A DNA stretch of 31,461 nucleotides from a virus (taxonomy: Duplodnaviria > Heunggongvirae > Uroviricota > Caudoviricetes), in IMG/VR virus record IMGVR_UViG_2778261696_000004, positions 1 through 31,461 of that record; one strand, given 5' to 3'. Below, in pieces: positions 1 through 31,461 of this stretch. A program made the translations under genes and the position numbers. Position 1 is the stretch's first letter. Each line of letters begins with the position of its first letter. The notes under the pieces were generated by a model. That model was given only the letters and a program-made list of their open reading frames with translations. It searched no databases and had not been told where the DNA came from.

Positions 1-68
1 ATTGTAACATTATTTACCACCACCTTTCAATCTTTTTCAATAAATTATTGATTGCAACTTTTGAGTAA

Positions 69-932
69 AGATACTTACGGACTTTCTACACCCATATCTC
101 CGACCAGTACGCGCCCTTCAGTGCCAAGGTGGTCAACGTGGGCATTCGTGATTCAACTTACGTGCTTGATGGCCTGCTGTACCACGAGTCGGACTTGCGC
201 ATCGAGGAACACTACACCGACACGGCAGGCTTCACCGATCACGTGTTTGGCTTGATGCATTTGCTGGGATTTCGCTTCGCGCCGCGTATCCGTGACTTGG
301 GCGAAACCAAGCTATTCATCCCCAAGGGCGATGCCGCCTATGACGCGCTCAAGCCGATGATTAGCAGCGACAGGCTGAACATCAAGCAAATACGCGCCCA
401 TTGGGATGAAATTCTGCGGCTGGCCACCTCCATCAAGCAAGGCACGGTAACGGCTTCGCTGATGCTGCGCAAACTCGGCAGCTACCCGCGCCAGAACGGC
501 TTGGCCGTGGCGTTGCGCGAGCTGGGGCGCATCGAGCGCACGCTGTTCATTTTGGATTGGCTGCAAAGCGTGGAGCTGCGCCGCCGCGTCCATGCGGGGC
601 TGAATAAGGGCGAGGCGCGCAACGCGCTGGCCAGGGCGGTCTTCTTCTACCGATTGGGTGAAATCCGCGACCGCAGTTTTGAGCAGCAGCGCTACCGGGC
701 CAGCGGCCTCAATCTGGTGACGGCGGCCATCGTGTTGTGGAACACGGTATATCTGGAGCGTGCCACCAGTGCTTTGCGTGGCAACGGCACGGCGCTGGAC
801 GACACATTGTTGCAATATCTGTCGCCGCTGGGGTGGGAGCACATCAACCTGACCGGCGATTACCTATGGCGCAGCAGCGCCAAGGTCGGTGCGGGGAAGT
901 TTAGGCCATTGCGACCGCTGCCACCGGCTTAG
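69..932 (+). pseudogene. tnpA: Tn21/Tn3-family transposase TnpA, C-terminal fragment (5'-truncated; frame open from 69, stop TAG 930-932)
   Basis: Translation (…[35 protein letters not shown]…[17 protein letters not shown]) matches my recollection of the C-terminus of Tn21-subgroup TnpA. The stop lies inside the terminal IR, as in Tn3-family elements. The N-terminal ~700 aa are absent. Confidence 0.85.
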
Positions 933-965
933 CGTGCTTTATTTTCCGTTTTCTGAGACGACCCC
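928..965. mobile_element. 38-bp terminal inverted repeat of a Tn21-subgroup transposon (tnpA-proximal end)
   Basis: Sequence cttagcgtgctttattttccgttttctgagacgacccc is the reverse complement of the Tn21-type IR GGGGTCGTCTCAGAAAACGGAAAATAAAGCACGCTAAG as I recall it. It ends at 965, where P1-like sequence begins. Confidence 0.8.
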
Positions 966-1416: not shown

Positions 1417-2448
1417 CTAATCGCCATCTTCCAGCAGGCGCACCATTGCCCCCGTTTCACTATCCAGGTTACGAATGTAGTTCATGACAATATTTACGTT
1501 GGTCCAGCCGCCAGCTTGCATGATCTCCGGTATAGAAACTCCGGCGCGGGCCATATCTCGCGCGGCACCGACACGGGCACTATGTCCAGACCAGGCCTGG
1601 TATCGCTGACCAGAGTCATCTTTTGCCCCGTAAATCAATCGGTGAGTTGCTTCAAAAATCCCTTCCAGGGCGCGAGTTGATAGCTGGCTGGTGGATGATG
1701 GCGCGGCAACACCATTTTTTCTGACGCGGCAAAACAGGTAGTTATTCGGATCATCAGCTACACCAGAGACAGAAATCCATCGCTCAACCAGTTTAGTTAC
1801 CCCCAGGCTAAGTGCCTTCTCTACACCAGCGGTGCTAACCAGCGTTTTCGTTCTGCCAATATGGATTAACATTCTCCCACCGTCAGTACGTGAGATATCT
1901 TTAACCCTGATCCTGGAAATTTCGGCTATACGTAACAGGGTGTTATAAGCAATCCCCAGAAATGCCAGATTACGTATATCCTGGCAGCGATCGCTATTTT
2001 CCATGAGTGAACGAACCTGGTCGAAATCAGTGCGTTCGAACGCCAGTGCCTGTTTTGCACGTTCACCGGCATCAACGTTTTCTTTTCGGATCCGTCGCAT
2101 GACCAGTGAAACAGCATTGCTGTCACTTGGTCGTGGCAGACCGGACCGACGATGAAGCATATTTAGCTGGCCCAAATGTTGCTGGATAGTTTTCACTGCC
2201 AGACCACGCGCCTGAAGATATAGAAGATAATCGCGAACATCTTCAGGTTCTGCGGGAAACCACTTCCGGTTATTCAACTTGCACCATGCCGCCCACGACC
2301 GGCAAACGGACAGAAGCATTTTCCAGGTATGCTCAGAAAACGCCTGGCGATCCCTGAACATGTCCATCAGGTTCTTGCGAACCTCATCACTCGTTGCATC
2401 GACCGGTAATGCAGGCAAATTTTGGTGTACGGTCAGTAAATTGGACAT
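1417..2448 (-). CDS. cre: Cre site-specific tyrosine recombinase
   Basis: 343-aa translation is near-identical to P1 Cre as recalled (MSNLLTVHQNLPALPV…GWTNVNIVMNYIRNLDSETGAMVRLLEDGD), with a few substitutions. A loxP site lies about 420 bp upstream. Confidence 0.97.
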   Translation of the reverse strand: MSNLLTVHQNLPALPVDATSDEVRKNLMDMFRDRQAFSEHTWKMLLSVCRSWAAWCKLNNRKWFPAEPEDVRDYLLYLQARGLAVKTIQQHLGQLNMLHRRSGLPRPSDSNAVSLVMRRIRKENVDAGERAKQALAFERTDFDQVRSLMENSDRCQDIRNLAFLGIAYNTLLRIAEISRIRVKDISRTDGGRMLIHIGRTKTLVSTAGVEKALSLGVTKLVERWISVSGVADDPNNYLFCRVRKNGVAAPSSTSQLSTRALEGIFEATHRLIYGAKDDSGQRYQAWSGHSARVGAARDMARAGVSIPEIMQAGGWTNVNIVMNYIRNLDSETGAMVRLLEDGD

Positions 2449-2455
2449 TTAACAC

Positions 2456-2677
2456 TCAGATAATGGTTTTAAGTAAAGTGTACAGGATCGGCTCTGCCTT
2501 TACCTGTTTATGGTTCTCGTCATAGAAACGCCAGCGACCGCGCGTGCGTCCTATTTTCTCTTCACCGCGCGATAATGACAGTTGGCAACTATCACGATCA
2601 AACCCTTTTGCCCGCCAGTAACCACGGTTTTTCTCAAGCTCAAGATGAGTGGACACTTTAGCAGCTGAATATCCCAT
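2456..2677 (-). CDS. hypothetical small protein (73 aa) immediately upstream of cre
   Basis: ATG preceded by GAGGTG Shine-Dalgarno about 5 nt upstream; stop is 5 nt before the cre ATG. No known domain, and it could overlap cre promoter elements. Confidence 0.35.
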   Translation of the reverse strand: MGYSAAKVSTHLELEKNRGYWRAKGFDRDSCQLSLSRGEEKIGRTRGRWRFYDENHKQVKAEPILYTLLKTII

Positions 2678-2773
2678 TTTTCACCTCTGATTGATTGGTG
2701 GTGCTAAGTGCGCTACGCGAAATCTGGAGCACAAACACTGCCAACATTTCGCAGATTTTACGTAGCGCAACCT

Positions 2774-2795
2774 TGATCAAATGATCAAGTGATCA
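2774..2795. promoter_or_regulatory. Three TGATCA hexamers (Dam GATC sites) spaced 8 bp in the cre upstream region
   Basis: cttGATCAaaTGATCAagTGATCAc seen directly. P1 cre promoters are reported to be Dam-methylation sensitive. Confidence 0.5.
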
Positions 2796-2866
2796 CTATT
2801 TGACCTGATAAGGTATTGAACTGTATGGATTTACAGGTAAATTGATCATGTTCAATAACCCTTAAG

Positions 2867-2900
2867 ATAACTTCGTATAATGTATGCTATACGAAATTAT
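2867..2900. other. loxP: loxP recombination site, single-base variant (ATAACTTCGTATA-ATGTATGC-TATACGAAATTAT)
   Basis: 13-bp arm, 8-bp spacer, 13-bp arm. The right arm has A at 2896 where canonical loxP has G (GAAGTTAT becomes GAAATTAT). Confidence 0.9.
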
Positions 2901-2943
2901 CAGGTCCGAAGAGGAGTTTACGTCCAGCTGCGCACAAAAATCA

Positions 2944-2960
2944 ATAATTATTAGAGCAAT
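2944..2960 (-). promoter_or_regulatory. C1 operator (15/17)
   Basis: Reverse complement is ATTGCTCTAATAATTAT, in the loxP-coi intergenic region. Confidence 0.65.
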
Positions 2961-3020
2961 AAATTTTGAGAGAAAAATCCCACTCCACCAGCTAAAAACT
3001 GGATTGTTTTTCATAGTTGT

Positions 3021-3043
3021 TTGACAATTGCTCTAATAAATTA
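3021..3043 (+). promoter_or_regulatory. C1 operator (ATTGCTCTAATAAATTA, 16/17) overlapping a TTGACA -35 hexamer
   Basis: TTGACAATTGCTCTAATAAATTATAG seen directly: -35-like hexamer fused to the operator, upstream of coi-c1. Confidence 0.7.
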
Positions 3044-3281
3044 TAGTTTTGCCGCCGTTACGTAATACGACTTTGGATTCACTATTTAATGTGTCTTCAG
3101 CGTTGTAGAGCGGCTCAGAAGGAAATGAGCAAACAGGGAAACCTTATACAACGGCATTACAGCTATGCATTGCTCATCTTACACACAGCGCAATGTTGTT
3201 AGATTACCCCAGCATGGATCATGGGTGAAACAGTAGGTCAGAGCTTCAGGCTCTGTGTTGTCAATACAGTGAGGCATAATT

Positions 3282-3491
3282 ATGGCTTTCATTCAACCAA
3301 CCATCGACGACGTTAGACATTGCTCTAACGCTTTATCTGTAGACCCTGCCGAAACCGACGCTGCCCGCGCCATTGCTGAACACTACTCAAAGATATCCAA
3401 TCAGGAGTACCGCATCACCCAAGACGACCTGGATGATCTCACTGACACAATCGAATATCTCATGGCAACTAACCAGTTAGACTCACAATAA
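3282..3491 (+). CDS. coi: Coi, C1 inactivator
   Basis: 69-aa ORF immediately upstream of c1 on the same strand. Size and position match P1 coi; the sequence itself was not independently recalled. Confidence 0.75.
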   Translation: MAFIQPTIDDVRHCSNALSVDPAETDAARAIAEHYSKISNQEYRITQDDLDDLTDTIEYLMATNQLDSQ

Positions 3492-3534
3492 ATGCACTAA
3501 TAAATCTATTATTTTTGTTTGATCCCTCTATAAT
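3491..3534 (+). promoter_or_regulatory. Operator-like 17-mer (AATGCACTAATAAATCT, 14/17) plus TATAAT -10 hexamer (3529-3534) upstream of c1
   Basis: Operator-like site at the coi stop, followed by a perfect TATAAT about 70 bp upstream of the c1 start. Consistent with autoregulated c1 expression. Confidence 0.5.
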
Positions 3535-3601
3535 ATAGGTCAGTAATGACCGGTTTTCTCAGCCGGGCGTTATTGACCATGTCAATTCTGGAGGAGGATC
3601 A

Positions 3602-4453
3602 ATGATAAATTATGTCTACGGCGAACAACTGTACCAGGAGTTCGTCAGCTTCAGGGATCTCTTTCTAAAAAAAGCTGTTGCACGCGCCCAACACGTTGAT
3701 ACAGCCAGCGACGGTCGTCCTGTACGCCCGGTTGTCGTTCTACCGTTCAAAGAAACTGACAGCATTCAGGCTGAAATTGATAAATGGACTTTAATGGCGC
3801 GGGAACTGGAACAGTACCCAGACCTCAATATCCCAAAGACTATTTTATATCCAGTGCCTAACATCCTTCGCGGTGTGCGCAAGGTTACAACTTATCAGAC
3901 AGAAGCTGTGAACAGCGTCAACATGACCGCTGGCCGCATTATTCATCTGATTGATAAGGACATTCGCATCCAAAAAAGCGCGGGGATCAATGAGCACAGT
4001 GCGAAATACATAGAGAACCTGGAAGCAACAAAAGAGCTAATGAGGCAGTACCCGGAGGATGAAAAATTCCGTATGCGCGTACACGGCTTTAGCGAAACAA
4101 TGCTGCGCGTCCACTACATTTCCAGTAGCCCTAACTACAATGATGGTAAATCAGTTAGTTACCATGTGCCACTGTGTGGCGTGTTTATCTGCGATGAAAC
4201 TCTCCGTGATGGAATTATCATCAACGGTGAATTCGAAAAAGCAAAATTTAGCCTTTATGACTCCATAGAACCGATCATCTGCGACCGCTGGCCGCAAGCA
4301 AAAATATATCGCCTGGCAGATATTGAAAATGTAAAAAAACAAATTGCCATCACTCGCGAAGAGAAAAAGGTTAAGTCAGCCGCATCAGTTACGCGCAGCC
4401 GTAAAACCAAGAAGGGGCAGCCAGTAAACGACAACCCCGAAAGCGCGCAATAA
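3602..4453 (+). CDS. c1: C1 repressor of lysis (primary immunity repressor)
   Basis: 283-aa translation (MINYVYGEQLYQEFVSFRDLFLKK…NDNPESAQ) matches P1 C1 as recalled. Cognate operators are distributed across the window. Confidence 0.93.
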   Translation: MINYVYGEQLYQEFVSFRDLFLKKAVARAQHVDTASDGRPVRPVVVLPFKETDSIQAEIDKWTLMARELEQYPDLNIPKTILYPVPNILRGVRKVTTYQTEAVNSVNMTAGRIIHLIDKDIRIQKSAGINEHSAKYIENLEATKELMRQYPEDEKFRMRVHGFSETMLRVHYISSSPNYNDGKSVSYHVPLCGVFICDETLRDGIIINGEFEKAKFSLYDSIEPIICDRWPQAKIYRLADIENVKKQIAITREEKKVKSAASVTRSRKTKKGQPVNDNPESAQ

Positions 4454-4456
4454 ATT

Positions 4457-4478
4457 ATGCCCGGCATCAACCGGGCAT
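4457..4478. terminator. Bidirectional hairpin terminator between convergent c1 and the antirepressor gene
   Basis: ATGCCCGG-catcaa-CCGGGCAT, an 8-bp stem, lies between the two stop codons, with a U-rich flank on the minus side. Confidence 0.5.
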
Positions 4479-4485
4479 TCTTCCA

Positions 4486-5601
4486 TTATTCAGCCGCCAC
4501 CGGTTTTAACAAGCCAGCATCGAGCAGTTTACGCGTCAACCACTGCTGGCCTTTACCCGTTAATTGAGGCGTCAACCGTATCTGGTAGCCATCTTCATCA
4601 TCCAGCACCACTTCTTTCACCGTGAAATACCCGGCGTTGATGTATTGCTGGAGCGGTACATTTTTACGCCCGCCGGACGCAATCAGGATGCCGTTCTCCC
4701 GTAACCAGGCAAACAGCGCGTTTTGCTTAAGTCCAACAACCTTTGCAAAATTCCCAATCAGGATCCCTTTAGCTACTGATACCCGGTCGGCAAAATCGAC
4801 TTTAGGAGCGGCGGCCACCAGCTGCTGATTTAGCTGGTGGGCTTTCTGTTCCAGAAGCTGCTTTTGTTCAGCCAGTTCGGCAGCCAGGCGCAGAGCTTCT
4901 GGAAGCGTCTGGGGGATTGCGATCGGTTGCTGTTCTTTTTGTCGGAAGTAGCTGTCTTCCAGTTTTTCAAAGAATGCCCATGCCTGATCGGTTTCGAGCA
5001 TTTTAGCGTGACGGGCAGCTCCTCGTTCTGTCCAGAGGATGAGAGAGCGCGCTTTGGGGGAGACTGGATTTTGTGAGTAGTTTAAAGCTACCCGCAAATT
5101 TTTCAGCTCATCGCCAATAACCTTGAAAAAGTGCTTCGCTTCAACAAAGCGTACTTTGTTCTCATGATGATTCTGGCGAATGCGAATCGCTTCTGTACCA
5201 TACCCCTTAGCAAGAGTTTCGGTTGTTACGACACGCACTCCCTGCCACTCCAGAACGGGAATTTCATCCGGCTGATTCTGAACAACCACCAGTTCCGATT
5301 CCTGAACTGAAGGTGCATAAATTTTTTCTGATTTAACGTTAGTTGCTTTCATTCTGTGTGCCTCCTTGCGTGCTTCGGCTGCGACGGTTGCGTAATTCAG
5401 ATGACCCTGTTCGAGCAGGTATTCACGGATATCGGTTAGCAGAATGCGGTGAACCGCGTGTTTGTCCTTTCTCCGGTAAAGTTGTTTGGTGATCATGAAG
5501 TAGTTGGCAATAACGCCAGGTATATCCCTGGTACTGATACAGGCAGTGTGCTGTTCAATTGCCTCGATCATCTCTTCACGGGTAACTAACGATGTTCTCA
5601 T
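4486..5601 (-). CDS. phage antirepressor (N-terminal Rha/ORF6N-like region, C-terminal KilAC/ANT domain), 371 aa
   Basis: C-terminal segment (AKGILIGNFAKVVGLKQNALFAWLRENGIL…PLQQYINAGYFTVKEVV…LTGKGQQWL) fits the KilA-C antirepressor pattern. Its start overlaps the stop of the upstream small ORF. Confidence 0.7.
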   Translation of the reverse strand: MRTSLVTREEMIEAIEQHTACISTRDIPGVIANYFMITKQLYRRKDKHAVHRILLTDIREYLLEQGHLNYATVAAEARKEAHRMKATNVKSEKIYAPSVQESELVVVQNQPDEIPVLEWQGVRVVTTETLAKGYGTEAIRIRQNHHENKVRFVEAKHFFKVIGDELKNLRVALNYSQNPVSPKARSLILWTERGAARHAKMLETDQAWAFFEKLEDSYFRQKEQQPIAIPQTLPEALRLAAELAEQKQLLEQKAHQLNQQLVAAAPKVDFADRVSVAKGILIGNFAKVVGLKQNALFAWLRENGILIASGGRKNVPLQQYINAGYFTVKEVVLDDEDGYQIRLTPQLTGKGQQWLTRKLLDAGLLKPVAAE

Positions 5602-5819
5602 AGTCCCTCCTGAGCAGAAGCGTTAACAGGGAGGCACCAGTAACTGAGAGAATTGCGTGAATCAGTGGAAAAACGGGCAGAGAAAATACATGGGGCGTCA
5701 GGAAGCTGAGAACGTGCCTCATCTTCTGTCGGTGCAATAACGAAGTGATAGTGACGTTTTTGGCAGGAGTAAAAGCGCCAGATAAATTCAGGATGAGCAG
5801 GGGTAGGGATAGTAGCCAC
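5598..5819 (-). CDS. small protein, Icd/Ash-like (putative cell-division-inhibitor family), 73 aa, GTG start
   Basis: TPAHPEFIWRF…EDEARSQL resembles Ash/Icd-like proteins as I recall them. AAGGAGG Shine-Dalgarno upstream; translationally coupled to the antirepressor, the same layout as icd-ant in P1 immI. Confidence 0.45.
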   Translation of the reverse strand: MATIPTPAHPEFIWRFYSCQKRHYHFVIAPTEDEARSQLPDAPCIFSARFSTDSRNSLSYWCLPVNASAQEGL

Positions 5820-6004
5820 AATGGCAGCCTCCTTTTGCTAATTTAAGGAGCTACCGCGTGAGGTCTCAATCTCAATGGCGGTAGCACTGACTGGGTTGAG
5901 ACTACCGGCGCAAAAGGGAACCGGCCTGCCTTTCGGCAGCCCAGCCAGCACTACCATTGATCTCCGAGCTAAACGCTACGTATGGCTGTGCGATGGCATG
6001 ACAC

Positions 6005-6028
6005 AAAAAAAAGACGCTTTTGGCGTCT
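6005..6028 (-). terminator. Rho-independent terminator (AGACGC-caaaa-GCGTCT followed by a run of 7-8 T) on the minus strand
   Basis: Perfect 6-bp stem and T-run seen directly. Lies about 140 nt downstream of the operator at 6160-6176 and upstream of the icd-like SD. Confidence 0.65.
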
Positions 6029-6159
6029 GTGTCGCCTTTTGCATTATCCGGGGTCTCAATCCCGGCACCCGTTTTAATGAGGTGCCTGATAAGCATAAAC
6101 CGAAAATGCCTCAAGGCGCAAGAGGTCAGGTTCAATGTAACATCGGCAGTTAAAAAACA
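6029..6159 (-). ncRNA. candidate small regulatory RNA (c4-like antisense RNA candidate)
   Basis: ORF-poor segment bounded by a C1 operator and an intrinsic terminator. Contains hairpin CCGGG-ATTGAGAC-CCCGG (6048-6065) whose loop is complementary to GTCTCAA in the icd-like leader (5893-5906). Confidence 0.4.
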
Positions 6160-6176
6160 CAATTTATTAGAGCAAA
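6160..6176 (-). promoter_or_regulatory. C1 operator (TTTGCTCTAATAAATTG, 15/17) directly downstream of the pacB stop
   Basis: 17-mer match on the minus strand, heading the sRNA / icd-like / antirepressor unit. Confidence 0.65.
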
Positions 6177-6179
6177 TAT

Positions 6180-7664
6180 TCATTCATTAAGCCATGCCAG
6201 AGCTTCATCAACCTGCGCTTCGTCTTCGACGCTAAGCACTTCATCCTGGGGAACATAATCCGCCAGCATAGCGAAACAATATGTATCCCAATGGTCTGGT
6301 GAGTGCAGGTTGAGTTTTTTCTTCATATCCTCCTTACTCATCACCTTCCATTGACCTGCGGAATTTATCCCGACCGGTATCTTTGATGCTTCCTCTATAG
6401 TCGCAGCCCCCTTATCAAGCCGCATACGCCCTGATTTTACAGCTTCTGCCGCCTGAATATTCGCGAAAGCGCGCATATCGAAATAAAGGCTTTTATCTTC
6501 ACGGCTGTGCATCTTTTTACCCCAGCGGATACGCTGGACGGTAATACCATAGCGTTCGTACATCAGATCAGCCGTCGATTTCCCCAAGCCATCGCCATCA
6601 ATAGCTATGGTTATGTTCGGGAACCGTTCTGGGTTACATTCTGCGAAAATCTTGGCGGCTAACTGCGTTTCTGTAACGTCTGTGTATTCCAGCATACGAT
6701 AGTTGATTACACGGCGTTTATTTCGCTGGCCGGACACCATCATGATATTAATAACGGACTTATCTCGTCCTGTGCCACCAGCAACGTCAACACATGCAAC
6801 CCAGCCCCATCCTTTGGCAATCTTGACCTTTCGCCGCGTCGCCCGCTCAACCTCATCACGACCAAGAAGAAAGCCATCTTGCGATTTGGGGAATTCACCA
6901 CGTACTTTGATCATGTACATGGGGTTATCACGACCGCCATACTCCGCAAGTTTTGCTCGTATAAATTTTGCATCTACAAGCGGAGATTCTTCACTATTCA
7001 GTATTATCGCAGTAAACAATCCATCAGGATTTCCCGGGCGAATAGCTAGTCTGTGGTGTGAATCGTAGAAATAGCCTGAAGGTCGCGTAGGCTGGGAAAG
7101 AAGCAGAATACGGTTATCCTTACCGGTCAGCGCACCTGTTATCACACTGAATGCTTTATCACTCACACCCGACGCTTCGTCGATGATATACAAGAGATGA
7201 TCGGCGTGTTCACCAGCCAACGCCTCCTCATTTCCGGGGCGACAGGACTTTATCAATATTGTCCAAACACCCTTGCCAGTCACCTCAAAAAAAGACGTTT
7301 CTGTAAGAATGAAATACTTCGACAACCACGGGAATCTGCTAACAGCAGTAGCCCAATTGCTCTTTATGTATTTGAAAATACCATCAAGGACTTGCTGTCT
7401 TTTGTTAGCGACCAGAATGACGCGAGCGCCGGGGAAAAACATGATGAAGAGTATTGCAATGATACTCGTCATATCCGATTTACCAGTACCATGGCCGGAG
7501 GTCACACTTGTCCAACTGCCGTCCTGCTGCGTGGACTCAATGATCTCATCCTGCTGCCAGGTTGGTGTCTTCCCAAACAACACATCAGCGGCCGCAATCC
7601 AGTCATAACGATATAGCGCCACCAGCTCGCGCCAACGTGGGTCCGTTACGCAACTTCTGGCCAT
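6180..7664 (-). CDS. pacB: PacB, terminase large (ATPase) subunit
   Basis: 494 aa with Walker A (SGHGTGKSD). Size and position downstream of pacA match P1 pacB. Confidence 0.88.
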
Positions 7665-8857
7665 TAATCATCATCCCCGTACAGTTTGCGGGTAACTTCT
7701 TCGTCTTCCTCCTCGTCTTCGTCCAGATCCTGTTCAAGCCATGCTTCGTTTGATATGCCTTCCGCATCGACATCACCATAACCACCTGTATCGACGATAT
7801 CGGCAATTTCTTCTCTACGATGCTCAATCCACAATGCCGCATCAGCGCGGCGGCTGGCGGCCCGTTCTCGCGCGATTTTATCCAGATCTTCAAGTGATGG
7901 AGCGCCAGATGCTGTTTGGTTTTCCTCATCATCGGTATTGGTCTTAGGAGCACGCAGATCGGCTTTGATTTGCTCCAGCATCAGGGGCGGCACTTTTCCT
8001 CCATGCGCCTCGATGAATTCAGCCGCTTCCAGCACTGACCAGTTATTTTCACGCTTTCGTTCGTATGCCAGCTTAACAATGCCAGCTTGCCCCATAGATA
8101 AAGCGTGCTTTTCCGCCTCCCGGCTTTCTTTTCGATAGTTATTCCGGATGCTGTAAATGGTGTTGATCAGGCTGCTTATCTGCGCGGAACAGCTGTTTAG
8201 CATGCTCGCGATACGGTATTCAGGCGGAGTACCTTCATCATCGTCTTTTTGCTGATCGCGCATTTCCTGCACCAGGCGAATACACGTATCCCTGGCGTTC
8301 TCCAGCATAAGGAGATGAGAAAGAGACTTTTCCAGAAGAGTGGTTTCCAGAACATCGGCCCCGGACCGACGCAACATAGCGCGCGCGGCCTTCCGCGCTT
8401 CAACGTTATCTATCAGGTAATCGCCAGCTTCGAATTCAAAGCGTTCACCATCATCATCCAGGGTGTCGCGTTCCAGGCGATCACGTAAGGTCCGGTGGGC
8501 GCGGGTGATCACGTCATGATCATCTGAACGATCATTTATGCGCTTATTTTGGCGCTTCGCATTCTCGACTGCGGCACTGACAACGGCATTAACTCTTTGT
8601 TTTTCCGCTGTTTCAGCCGCAATGTGATCACCTGCATGTTGATCATTAGAGTGATCAATGATCATGCTTTTTAGTGGCTTCCTGACTGGCTTATTTGGCT
8701 TGCGGCTGTCCGCTGTCCTGGTGTCTTCTTTGAAGGCACGGAGATAACGACGTGCGGTATTAGGGTTAAGATTAAACTCGGCGGCATACTGTGCGATGGT
8801 GTAACCACCATCTCGCGCCAGGCGAGCAAAATTCTTCTTGTGATCGTCCCAGGTCAC
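7664..8857 (-). CDS. pacA: PacA, terminase small/pac-recognition subunit (GTG start)
   Basis: 397 aa, the P1 PacA size; the pac hexamer clusters lie inside its 5' coding region, as in P1. Confidence 0.85.
8478..8664. other. pac: pac packaging site: two clusters of (T/C)GATCA hexamers carrying 8 GATC Dam sites
   Basis: Left cluster 8478-8534 (CGATCA, TGATCA, TGATCA, CGATCA) and right cluster 8625-8664 (four TGATCA), about 90 bp apart. P1 pac is described as hexamer repeats with Dam sites inside pacA. Confidence 0.75.
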
Positions 8858-11802: not shown

Positions 11803-11821
11803 AGCGTTTTCACCTCAATAA

Positions 11822-11841
11822 TACTGTTCATTTATACAGTA
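11822..11841. promoter_or_regulatory. LexA (SOS) box TACTGTTCATTTATACAGTA
   Basis: Perfect CTGT-N8-ACAG palindrome immediately upstream of humD and divergent from the ORF at 11977. Confidence 0.85.
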
Positions 11842-11976
11842 TACATTGAAGAGACACCTTTGGTGCAAACGCGTTACGTACATCAACCACCGCTGATGAT
11901 TTTGTGCTCTTTGCTACTATTCATCACCAACGGATCAGCGTAACCTCGTTGCCAATCAGTTAATAAGGAATTAGCT

Positions 11977-12295
11977 ATGCCTAATCGCATTCCTCTCATC
12001 TCTTAACGATATCAACGATGCGTTATATGAATACTGTGAAAAAACGAGCATCACAGATGCACCTGATGCATTTGTCGAGCTACCGGTATATCTCCGCGAC
12101 ATCTATGCAATACGAACACCGCCCGTATCGGTGATTCACATTGGCTATGTCCGCCTGTCCATCGAAGAAGATGAAGATCGTTATATCGTGCGCCACTATA
12201 CATTGGACAGAAAAGAACTTCCTAATGAATGGAACATGAGTAATTTCTACAACGGTGAATATGGCTTAAAATCCGCTAATAATTTACGGTCATAA
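11977..12295 (+). pseudogene. frameshifted or interrupted gene (ATG 11977 with AAGGA SD, stop after 9 codons; +1 frame stays open to 12295)
   Basis: A good SD+ATG opens a 9-codon ORF, while the overlapping +1 frame encodes about 97 aa with no canonical start before a GTG at 12131. Confidence 0.4.
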
Positions 12296-13157
12296 TCTAT
12301 ACAGGCATGCATAACAACAACGAGCCTATTAGCTGTCAACAACGTTATTTTCTCAAATAAGAAAAAGCAGAAAACAAATTGTTTAAGGTCACAAATTGTG
12401 GCCTTGATGGAGGAGGGAGGCTTATTGGCTATGGCTAAAAATCAAATTAGACACTTCATGTTGCTGTAGCTCATCAAGATCCGAGGCCACAAAACCTTTT
12501 CCGAAAAACTTCACAAGTAACTCACTAGCCGCATCATTGTCACCTATTACACGAAAGTCATACGGCAACGTCGCAAGTTGACGATGTAATCCTGCTGAGA
12601 AAGTCGAATCTAACAGCGCCCAGAATTCCCACCGCAGGATAATACTCGCCTCTTAATACTGTATATATGTTGTTACGATATGTTTTTCTGTCTCTAAAAA
12701 AAGATGTTAATAGAATGCTAACCATTGAAGGGGATAAAAATATACAATTCCAACAAACGTTATTTTTAACAATTTTTTTCTTTGCGTTGACTTTCCCGGA
12801 CACCTTGTCTGACCGAAGGTGCGCGAAAGCCACTTTTTCCTTCCTGAGTTATCCACAAAGTTATGCACTTGCAAGAGGGCCATTTTCTACATATTGTGGT
12901 GGCTAACAGATGAAATGAATGTAGATTAATTGAAGATAAGGAGAAAATTTGAGATGCAATCATGACGTTAATAGATAGGGTCTGCATTACAGACCCCACC
13001 CGCATCAAGGAATTAGCCGTTCCCTGATGTTTTTACGAAAACATGTGCCGTAAGCTCACGTTAACGACTTTCATTCACCGAATCCAACTATATAGGGGTT
13101 GGGTTTCTACGTCAACGTGAGCAAGTGCACCTTTACATTTGACAAGGAACCACCTGA

Positions 13158-13295
13158 ATGAACGCTTTTTTTCAGTTCCTGAGTGCATTTTTAGATGCGC
13201 CTATTATTAGCCAGATTCTGGCTATTATCCTCATCATCGTTTTGATTTTGCTTTTAAGGTCAGTAAAAAATGGAATTATGCACTGGCTTACTTAA
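13158..13295 (+). CDS. small hydrophobic membrane peptide, 45 aa (MNAFFQFLSAFLDAPIISQILAIILIIVLILLLRSVKNGIMHWLT)
   Basis: ATG with AAGGA SD 9 nt upstream; one predicted TM helix. Below the ORF-track cutoff. Confidence 0.3.
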   Translation: MNAFFQFLSAFLDAPIISQILAIILIIVLILLLRSVKNGIMHWLT

Positions 13296-13370
13296 TGTTT
13301 CAGTGAAACATTAAAATCTCCTTGATGTGGAAACAATCATTTTCTGTATGTGCTGGTGGGCACCTGTAGT

Positions 13371-29872: not shown

Positions 29873-31461
<1,589 letters not shown>

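What the first reader, a model, noticed from the sequence alone, without database searches (positions are those of the whole stretch)
2867..2900. loxP with a single-base asymmetry in one Cre-binding arm
The right arm reads TATACGAAATTAT where canonical loxP has TATACGAAGTTAT (A at 2896); spacer and left arm are canonical. Cre here also carries a few substitutions relative to P1 Cre as recalled. This is either a natural lox variant co-evolving with its recombinase or a sequencing error.
Basis: partly seen in the sequence, partly recalled or inferred. Interest (0 to 1): 0.45.

Follow-up and report, generated by a model that had tools for sequence, protein, structure and literature searches.

The report
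Rare natural one-base loxP variant
This is the ordinary Cre/loxP recombination site of a P1-like phage-plasmid carrying a rare but real single-base polymorphism at a weakly recognised outer position; it travels with the neighbouring c1 repressor side, not with the recombinase gene, so it is neither a sequencing error nor recombinase/site co-evolution.

Summary
Window 2867-2900 is loxP with one change, G->A at 2896 (right half-site position 13'); the spacer and the other arm are canonical. The adjacent Cre is P1 Cre with A178S, A252S and L284Q.

The A allele is heritable: it is in five complete E. coli plasmids from two studies and in one further assembly. It is rare, at 5 of about 680 loxP-bearing records, and absent from IMG/VR, JGI metagenome and GTDB contigs.

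It does not co-evolve with Cre. All 10 contigs examined that encode exactly this Cre have canonical G. The other carriers of A encode a different Cre allele. A sister haplotype identical over 4.9 kb on the c1 side has G, so A is a recent point mutation.

The window is a mosaic joined at lox. Positions 1-2895 are 100% identical to pAH25-2-type plasmids and 2809-31461 are 100% identical to pEC12-3-type plasmids. The 87-bp crossover interval contains the lox spacer, which fits a Cre-mediated exchange.

Published Rec-seq data put the cost of G->A at 13' at about 2.6-fold, against about 20-fold at key positions, so the allele is probably near-neutral. This is an ordinary, low-interest finding.

The parts
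2867..2900 (+). lox site: 13-bp arm, 8-bp spacer, 13-bp arm. It differs from loxP by one base.
   Evidence: It lies in the same position as the annotated lox of P1, P7 and phiW39.
2867..2879 (+). cre-proximal Cre-binding arm, canonical ATAACTTCGTATA
2880..2887 (+). canonical asymmetric spacer ATGTATGC, where Cre exchanges strands
   Evidence: The start and end of the P1 reference genome map to window 2883/2884.
2888..2900 (+). c1-proximal Cre-binding arm TATACGAAATTAT. The variant base is A at 2896 (position 13'; canonical G).
   Evidence: G is found in about 675 of 680 E. coli records and in 99 of 104 IMG/VR sites; none of the other five IMG/VR sites has A at this position.
2809..2895 (.). 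Interval that must contain the crossover between the two parental haplotypes of this mosaic
   Evidence: The last difference from pEC12-3 is at 2808 and there are none after it. There are no differences from pAH25-2 before 2896.
1417..2448 (-). cre (343 aa; P1 Cre with A178S, A252S, L284Q). The protein matches RefSeq WP_000067536.1, inferred from 100% DNA identity to pAH25-2.
2456..2677 (-). cra (73 aa), the ORF upstream of cre
   Evidence: plus the annotations of X03453 and of related phages.
2915..2944 (-). Homologue of P1 promoter P4cre (-35 TTGATT at 2939-2944, -10 TAAACT at 2915-2920). It reads through lox toward cra and cre. The variant lies about 12 nt into this putative leader.
   Evidence: Coordinates transferred from the AF234172 annotation. 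The hexamers are conserved in the alignment. No activity was tested.
2944..2960 (-). Homologue of C1 operator Oc1e (ATTGCTCTAATAATTAT)
3282..3491 (+). coi (C1 inactivator, 69 aa)
3602..4453 (+). c1 repressor (283 aa)

Best explanation
The site is the functional lox site of a P1-like (Punavirus) phage-plasmid. Its job, known from P1 biology, is to let Cre resolve plasmid dimers and circularise infecting DNA.

The A at 2896 is a recent, derived point mutation. It arose on one c1-side haplotype, the pEC12-3 / pXH987-OQX lineage from human urine isolates in Hangzhou. It sits at half-site position 13', one of the five distal bases that Cre reads only weakly. It is therefore most likely near-neutral, costing a few-fold at most, and is simply inherited.

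The base lies outside the spacer in the c1-proximal arm, so any exchange within lox leaves it attached to the c1 flank and separates it from cre. That is what the window shows. Its cre side is identical to a different lineage (pAH25-2 / pE94-3-type plasmids, which carry resistance genes and normally have canonical loxP). Its c1 side is identical to the pEC12-3 lineage. The switch falls inside an 87-bp interval that includes the lox spacer.

Shown: the sequence, its rarity, its inheritance, the absence of linkage to the Cre allele, and the position of the junction.

Inferred: that the junction was made by Cre acting on a canonical and a variant lox, and that the variant site is recombination-proficient.
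For: - **Identity of the site.** One mismatch to loxP, none expected by chance. Gene order is cre-cra-lox-coi-c1 as in P1.
- **Rarity.** Exact matches to the variant occur in 5 of 673 E. coli complete-genome records and 5 of 663 PLSDB plasmids; these are the same five records. There are none in 14 phage records and none in IMG/VR, JGI metagenome or GTDB contigs. Exact canonical loxP occurs in about 675 of 680 records, and the only five one-mismatch records number the same as the variant carriers.
- **Inheritance.** Window 2809-31461 has 0 differences from pEC12-3. The overlapping part of pXH987-OQX (window 2809-22900) also has 0 differences. L245 (GCA_026614445.1) also carries A and is identical on the right side.
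- **Derived state.** L247 is identical to the window over 2901-7837 but has G. Eight further loci differ from the window at one site in 2901-4452 and also have G.
- **No Cre linkage.** Different Cre alleles occur with the same variant lox. All 10 contigs with the window's exact Cre have G.
- **Junction.** There are 0 differences from pAH25-2 over 1-2895. The first difference is at 2896, followed by 2901, 2907, 2929 and onward.
- **Reassortment.** Seven loci with at most 2 differences from the window on the left (966-2866) carry at least 4 different right haplotypes. Twelve loci near-identical on the right carry at least 6 different left haplotypes.
[quoted passage not shown] The log2 values are G +0.73 and A -0.63, a difference of about 2.6-fold. 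The paper states that Lys244 at positions 16-17 is the only direct contact with the five distal bases (PMC6486577). Right-arm mutants with 3-5 changes still recombine (PMC2865440).
- **Biological role.** Cre/loxP keeps P1 monomeric (PMC2409434).
Against: - No recombination assay and no raw reads are available, so both function and read support are inferred.
- P1-like elements are mosaic throughout this region. Correlation of pairwise distances between adjacent 400-bp blocks is low everywhere on the cre side. My population-level tests did not show a clean hotspot at lox. The junction could therefore have been made by homologous recombination that happened to fall near lox.
- Rec-seq does show a preference for G at 13', so the allele may be slightly deleterious rather than strictly neutral.
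- All known carriers may trace to one city, so the 'independent' records are epidemiologically related.
Confidence: 0.85

Rival explanations
1. Sequencing or consensus error at 2896 in the source assembly.
For: It is a single-base transition in an AT-rich inverted repeat. The allele is very rare, at about 0.7% of loxP-bearing E. coli records. Reads could not be inspected.
Against: The same base is present in five complete plasmids of two different architectures (91 kb, and 100 kb with oqxAB) from two accession series, and in a further draft assembly. All share a 100% identical flank with the window. About 675 other assemblies read G in the same sequence context, so a systematic error is not credible.
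Confidence: 0.03
2. The lox variant and the Cre substitutions (A178S, A252S, L284Q) are a co-adapted site/recombinase pair.
For: Both the site and the enzyme differ from the P1 reference.
Against: - The same Cre protein is paired with canonical lox in 10 of 10 contigs examined and in pAH25-2 and pE94-3.
- In IMG/VR, the window's A178S/A252S/L284Q allele occurs once and sub-combinations of its substitutions (A178S/A252S and others) many times, all with canonical lox.
- The other carriers of the variant lox encode a different Cre.
- DNA-contact and catalytic residues are unchanged.
- The variant arm is genetically linked to c1, not to cre.
Confidence: 0.02
3. The mosaic junction is real but was made by RecA-dependent homologous recombination, or the window is an assembly chimera of two co-resident P1-like plasmids, rather than a product of Cre acting at lox.
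For: The whole cre-lox-c1 region is highly mosaic among P1-like elements. No statistically clean hotspot at lox emerged from my tests. The 87-bp interval is not narrow enough to pin the exchange to the 8-bp spacer.
Against: - The single junction in a 31.5-kb window falls in an 87-bp interval containing lox. That is about 0.3% of the window if junctions were placed uniformly, and lox was the site chosen for examination beforehand.
- An identical left haplotype is joined to several right haplotypes that diverge within 35-80 bp of lox, and the reverse also holds.
- The two parents share much longer identical tracts elsewhere, for example stretches of 500 bp or more in 6500-8500. Homologous recombination or an assembler switch would be more likely to fall in those tracts.
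- From established P1 genetics (my own knowledge, not tested here), loxP is the recombination hotspot that makes the P1 map linear.
Confidence: 0.3
4. The substitution is adaptive or regulatory. It might weaken Cre binding to one arm to bias strand-exchange order or limit exchange with competing P1-like plasmids. Alternatively it might alter transcription toward cra and cre. On the cre-sense strand the change turns GATAAC into GATAAT, a better -10-like hexamer, and it lies about 12 nt into the leader of the P4cre homologue.
For: - Rec-seq shows a measurable preference for G at 13' (about 2.6-fold).
- The sequence shows a GATAAT / TGnTAATTT motif in this haplotype.
- P1 annotation places promoter P4cre and operator Oc1e immediately outside this arm.
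Against: - There is no suitable -35 at 16-18 bp, and the consensus scan found no promoter-like site in 2400-3700.
- The allele has not spread beyond one narrow lineage.
- The nearest sister haplotypes with G are otherwise identical, which gives no sign of selection.
- Far more drastic one-arm mutants (lox66 type) still recombine.
Confidence: 0.07

Closest known systems
loxP of bacteriophage P1 (X03453; AF234172), and the identical lox sites of P7, phiW39, SJ46 and other Punavirus phage-plasmids
   Same: 33 of 34 bases. The spacer and the cre-proximal arm are identical. The genomic position is the same, between cra-cre and coi-c1. The adjacent Cre is 99% identical with all catalytic residues intact.
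   Different: G->A at half-site position 13' of the c1-proximal arm. The arms are therefore 12/13 rather than 13/13 symmetric.
Engineered right-element (RE) mutant lox sites: lox66, loxJTZ17, loxKR1-4
   Same: The mutation is confined to one arm with a wild-type spacer, and position 13' lies within the block altered in lox66. Such sites remain substrates for Cre (PMC2865440).
   Different: The engineered sites carry 3-5 substitutions designed to lower Cre affinity. This site has a single natural transition with a small predicted effect.
lox sites of pEC12-3 (NZ_CP060935.1), the EC15 and EC18 plasmids, pXH987-OQX (NZ_CP102674.1) and the XH989 plasmid
   Same: The 34-bp variant site is identical. 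The fetched stretches match the window 100% to the right of lox (pEC12-3 to the window's end, 28.6 kb; pXH987-OQX to 22900, 20 kb).
   Different: Their cre side differs from the window at 97 positions in 966-2808, and they encode another Cre allele. The site is not annotated in those records.

Membership tests
loxP-type Cre recombination site (P1 / Punavirus) | Two 13-bp inverted Cre-binding repeats flanking an 8-bp asymmetric spacer, matching the ATAACTTCGTATA / ATGTATGC consensus | tested here: met
   33/34 identity, with spacer and one arm exact. There is no other such site in the window and none in shuffles.
loxP-type Cre recombination site (P1 / Punavirus) | Adjacent cre gene encoding a tyrosine recombinase with the catalytic residues R173, K201, H289, R292, W315 and Y324 | tested here: met
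   A 343-aa ORF at 1417-2448 (-) is 340/343 identical to crystallised Cre (E = 8e-229), with catalytic and contact residues intact.
loxP-type Cre recombination site (P1 / Punavirus) | Conserved genomic context: between cra-cre and the immC region (coi, c1) of a P1-like genome | tested here: met
   ORFs and the annotations of homologous records. The P4cre and Oc1e homologues are conserved.
loxP-type Cre recombination site (P1 / Punavirus) | Cre-dependent recombination at the site | not testable with these tools
   There is indirect support only. The mosaic junction maps to the 87-bp interval containing the spacer. Rec-seq shows weak specificity at 13'.
Co-evolved recombinase / target pair (as for Dre/rox or VCre/loxV relative to Cre/loxP) | The site variant is consistently associated with a recombinase variant that has altered DNA-contact residues | tested here: not met
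   The same Cre occurs with canonical lox in 10 of 10 contigs. The same variant lox occurs with two different Cre alleles. Contact residues are unchanged.

The most novel reading that the evidence does not exclude
The one-base lox polymorphism is a natural genetic marker that catches a Cre-lox exchange between two different P1-like phage-plasmids in the wild. That exchange swapped the resistance-island-bearing cre/ref side of one lineage (pAH25-2 / mcr-1 pE94-3 type) onto the c1-to-dam backbone of another (pEC12-3 type). If general, Cre-lox reassortment would be a routine route by which P1-like phage-plasmids shuffle cargo between backbones.
Probability: 0.5. Interest if true: 0.3.

Novelty: already known. 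Interest (0 to 1): 0.13.

Why it matters
It matters little for mechanism. Cre/loxP is among the best-characterised recombination systems, and the change is at a weakly read position.

There are two modest points of value.

First, natural loxP is almost invariant. About 675 of 680 loxP-bearing complete E. coli replicons have the exact 34-mer, and this G13'A allele is the only full-length one-mismatch class found there. It is a convenient lineage marker for a group of P1-like plasmids from Hangzhou.

Second, the SNP lies in the c1-proximal arm. This exposes the window as a two-parent mosaic joined within 87 bp of the lox spacer, a plausible natural footprint of Cre-mediated exchange between phage-plasmids, one parent of which belongs to a lineage that carries resistance genes.

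Tried and rejected
1. **Exact-pattern scans for the variant 34-mer** in IMG/VR, JGI metagenome and GTDB genome contigs found no matches.

2. **Full-text literature search** for either strand of the variant arm returned only irrelevant hits: insect barcodes and a Rickettsia primer. I found no description of this allele.

3. **Population-level tests for a breakpoint hotspot at lox** were all inconclusive. I counted pairs identical on one side and divergent on the other along a sliding boundary. I computed the Spearman correlation of pairwise distances in adjacent 400-bp blocks. I mapped the end-points of identical tracts of at least 1 kb. The results are confounded by uneven SNP density, by the hypervariable stretch upstream of c1, and by edge geometry. 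I do not rely on them.

4. **Variable-site density in lox compared with its flanks** gave 5 sites against roughly 9 per 34 bp. I did not use this as evidence of constraint, because many of the loci were retrieved by an exact match to the 24-bp core.

5. **Promoter consensus scan** of 2400-3700 found nothing. It also misses the annotated P4cre, so it is insensitive. The GATAAT idea is kept only as a low-probability rival.

6. **The GTDB scan for the loxP core** mostly returned non-P1 contexts in unrelated bacteria, which cannot be used as natural lox variants.

7. **The P1 genome paper** (PMC523184) is not held in the library.

Full report
**1. The observation**

Window 2867-2900 reads ATAACTTCGTATAATGTATGCTATACGAAATTAT. 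A search for canonical loxP allowing up to 3 mismatches, on both strands, finds only this site. It has one mismatch, and no match occurred in 100 shuffles. The mismatch is G->A at 2896, which is position 30 of 34 and half-site position 13' in the 5-17 numbering. The left arm and spacer are canonical.

The ORF at 1417-2448 (-) is Cre, and it differs from crystallised P1 Cre only by A178S, A252S and L284Q. The catalytic and main DNA-contact residues are intact.

**2. Context**

The window is part of a P1-like (Punavirus) phage-plasmid. The gene order is a Tn3-family transposase remnant, a 103-aa ORF, cre, cra, lox, coi, c1, then pacB, pacA, lpa, phd/doc, tRNAs, dnaB and dam-like genes.

Relative to the P1 reference, the window is in reverse orientation, and the P1 sequence start and end fall at window 2883/2884 inside the spacer. 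The variant arm is the c1-proximal one, equivalent to P1 coordinate about 94788.

The P1 annotation places a C1-controlled promoter (P4cre) and operator (Oc1e) just outside that arm, reading through lox toward cra and cre. Both are conserved here, with -35 TTGATT at 2939-2944, -10 TAAACT at 2915-2920 and the operator at 2944-2960. The variant base lies about 12 nt into that putative leader and is not in a promoter hexamer.

**3. How common is the allele?**

| Collection | Records matching the 34-mer | Exact variant |
|---|---|---|
| 5,426 complete E. coli genomes | 673 | 5 |
| PLSDB plasmids | 663 | 5, the same records |
| GenBank phages | 14 | 0 |
| IMG/VR, JGI metagenome, GTDB contigs | – | 0 |

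The five carriers are pEC12-3 and the EC15 and EC18 plasmids (CP0609xx), and pXH987-OQX and the XH989 plasmid (CP1026xx). The three fetched or listed with metadata (pEC12-3, pXH987-OQX) are from human urine in Hangzhou.

Searching with the canonical 34-mer gives 675 records at 99% identity or better and exactly 5 with one mismatch. In IMG/VR, 99 of 104 sites that share the 24-bp core are canonical. The allele is therefore rare, at about 0.7%, but reproducibly present.

**4. Error or inherited?**

From position 2809 to the end of the window (28.6 kb) there is not a single difference from pEC12-3. The overlapping part of pXH987-OQX, window 2809-22900, is likewise identical. These two plasmids differ from each other in architecture (91 kb, and 100 kb with an IS26-oqxAB insertion).

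A further draft assembly (GCA_026614445.1, L245) also carries A on the same haplotype. The nearest sister haplotype, L247 (GCA_025157155.1), is identical to the window over 2901-7837 but has G. Eight more loci differ from the window at one site in 2901-4452 and also have G.

A is therefore a recent derived point mutation that is inherited. It is not a one-off base-calling error. Reads were not available, so this rests on concordance between independent assemblies.

**5. Co-evolution with Cre?**

No. The carriers pEC12-3 and pXH987-OQX encode a different Cre allele (S110C, Q144L, A249S, A252S) from the window's. Conversely, the window's exact Cre protein was found on 10 other distinct contigs, all with G at 2896. 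A178S, A252S and L284Q occur in many combinations with canonical lox in IMG/VR. None of the three substitutions is at a listed DNA-contact or catalytic residue.

**6. The window is a mosaic joined at lox**

- Against pEC12-3, all 97 differences lie in 966-2808, with none from 2809 onward.
- Against pAH25-2 (NZ_CP055258.1, a chicken isolate from Anhui), there are no differences over 1-2895. The same left segment also matches a CRE1540 plasmid (100%) and the mcr-1 plasmid pE94-3 (99.9%). The first difference from pAH25-2 is 2896 itself, followed by 2901, 2907, 2929, 2935, 2945 and about 1.4% divergence thereafter.

The crossover therefore lies within 2809-2895, an 87-bp interval that contains the cre-proximal arm and the spacer where Cre exchanges strands. 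If a single junction were placed uniformly in the 31.5-kb window, it would land in that interval about 0.3% of the time.

The same pattern recurs in other loci. Seven loci with at most 2 differences from the window on the left carry at least four different right-hand haplotypes. Twelve loci near-identical on the right carry at least six left-hand haplotypes, and in several the last left-hand difference is only 1-60 bp from lox.

This fits the classical role of loxP as the recombination hotspot of P1. That role is established knowledge which I cite from memory and did not test here. It also explains why a c1-arm SNP is unlinked to cre.

My attempts to demonstrate a population-wide hotspot statistically were inconclusive, because the whole region is highly mosaic. 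Homologous recombination near lox remains a real alternative for the junction, at about 0.3. An assembly chimera is less likely, because the two parents share much longer identical tracts elsewhere.

**7. Likely functional consequence**

[quoted passage not shown] The corresponding values at positions 5-7 and 10 are 3.9-5.9. The log2 enrichments at 13' are G +0.73 and A -0.63, which is about 2.6-fold. The equivalent G-to-A comparison at 10' is about 20-fold (PMC6486577 source data).

The paper notes that Lys244 at positions 16-17 is the only direct contact with the five distal bases. Engineered right-arm mutants with 3-5 changes remain good substrates (PMC2865440).

In its natural job the site recombines with an identical sister copy to keep the plasmid monomeric (PMC2409434). 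I therefore infer a functional site with at most a modest loss of affinity on one arm.

I noted one speculative regulatory reading. On the cre-sense strand, GATAAC becomes GATAAT. This has no supporting -35, and the consensus scan found no promoter-like site.

**8. Comparison with known systems, and verdict**

The site is a member of the loxP/Cre system. The sequence, the adjacent recombinase and the genomic context all meet the defining features. Activity could not be tested with these tools. It resembles engineered RE-mutant lox sites only in having a change confined to one arm.

It is not a co-evolved recombinase/site pair, because that defining feature was tested and not met.

Novelty is low. 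It is a rare natural allele of a very well-known site, already present but unremarked in public plasmid records. Interest is 0.13. The most novel reading not excluded is that the SNP marks a natural Cre-lox exchange between two phage-plasmid lineages (probability about 0.5, modest interest).

Noticed in passing
L251 (GCA_052517285.1 DBKBOT010000018.1), lox at locus position 6451 after reverse-complementing; equivalent to window 2884: A P1-like contig encoding exactly the window's Cre has a lox spacer variant, ATGTTTGC instead of ATGTATGC. A spacer change should block exchange with canonical loxP, so it is potentially more consequential than the arm SNP studied here.
   Followed up: no
window 4486-6085 (-): An immI-type module sits between c1 and pacB. 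It consists of an antirepressor (ORF6N/ANT, 371 aa), an icd-like ORF, an ash-family ORF, a C4 antisense RNA (Rfam RF01695, 5874-5961) and an isrK-like RNA (RF01394, 6007-6085). In pAH25-2 and pE94-3, c1 is followed directly by the terminase gene, so this roughly 1.7-kb module is a haplotype-specific insertion.
   Followed up: partly
window 1-965: The left end is a Tn3-family transposase remnant (ORF 129-932). In the 100% identical relatives it adjoins resistance cargo: bleO/IS26 in pAH25-2 and mcr-1.1-pap2-ISApl1 in pE94-3. The window's cre side therefore comes from a lineage of P1-like plasmids that carries resistance genes.
   Followed up: partly
window 11803-13370: A stretch of about 1.5 kb between the humD-like gene and the next annotated gene has no ORF longer than 91 aa and no annotation in pEC12-3. 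At the equivalent position pAH25-2 and pE94-3 carry a type I restriction-modification operon (hsdM/S/R), so this is a variable cargo slot.
   Followed up: no
L105-L184 and further GTDB genome contigs (e.g. Gemmata sp. IIL30, Candidatus Paracaedibacter symbiosus, Legionella tunisiensis, Sediminibacterium salmoneum): Many unrelated bacterial draft genomes contain exact loxP cores, often several per scaffold or at contig ends. These are not P1 prophages. I suspect (from memory, not tested) residual loxP linkers from Cre-circularised 454 paired-end libraries, which would make them assembly artefacts.
   Followed up: no
JX564242.1 / NC_049809.1 (Lactococcus phage Q33) 17548-17581: A sequence one base from the window's variant lox (presumably canonical loxP) lies inside the annotated portal protein gene of a Lactococcus phage. 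It looks like an engineered or linker-derived insertion rather than natural sequence.
   Followed up: no
L059, L095 (IMG/VR); L033, L051, L078: Other rare natural lox arm variants exist. T31C (…GAAGCTAT) occurs in two IMG/VR contigs. Three contigs have the outer 3-5 bases of one arm replaced, which could be hybrid sites from recombination with a secondary site or could reflect contig ends.
   Followed up: no
window 29873-31384 (-): The dam-family methyltransferase gene is annotated as a pseudogene (missing its N-terminus) in the identical region of pEC12-3.
   Followed up: no
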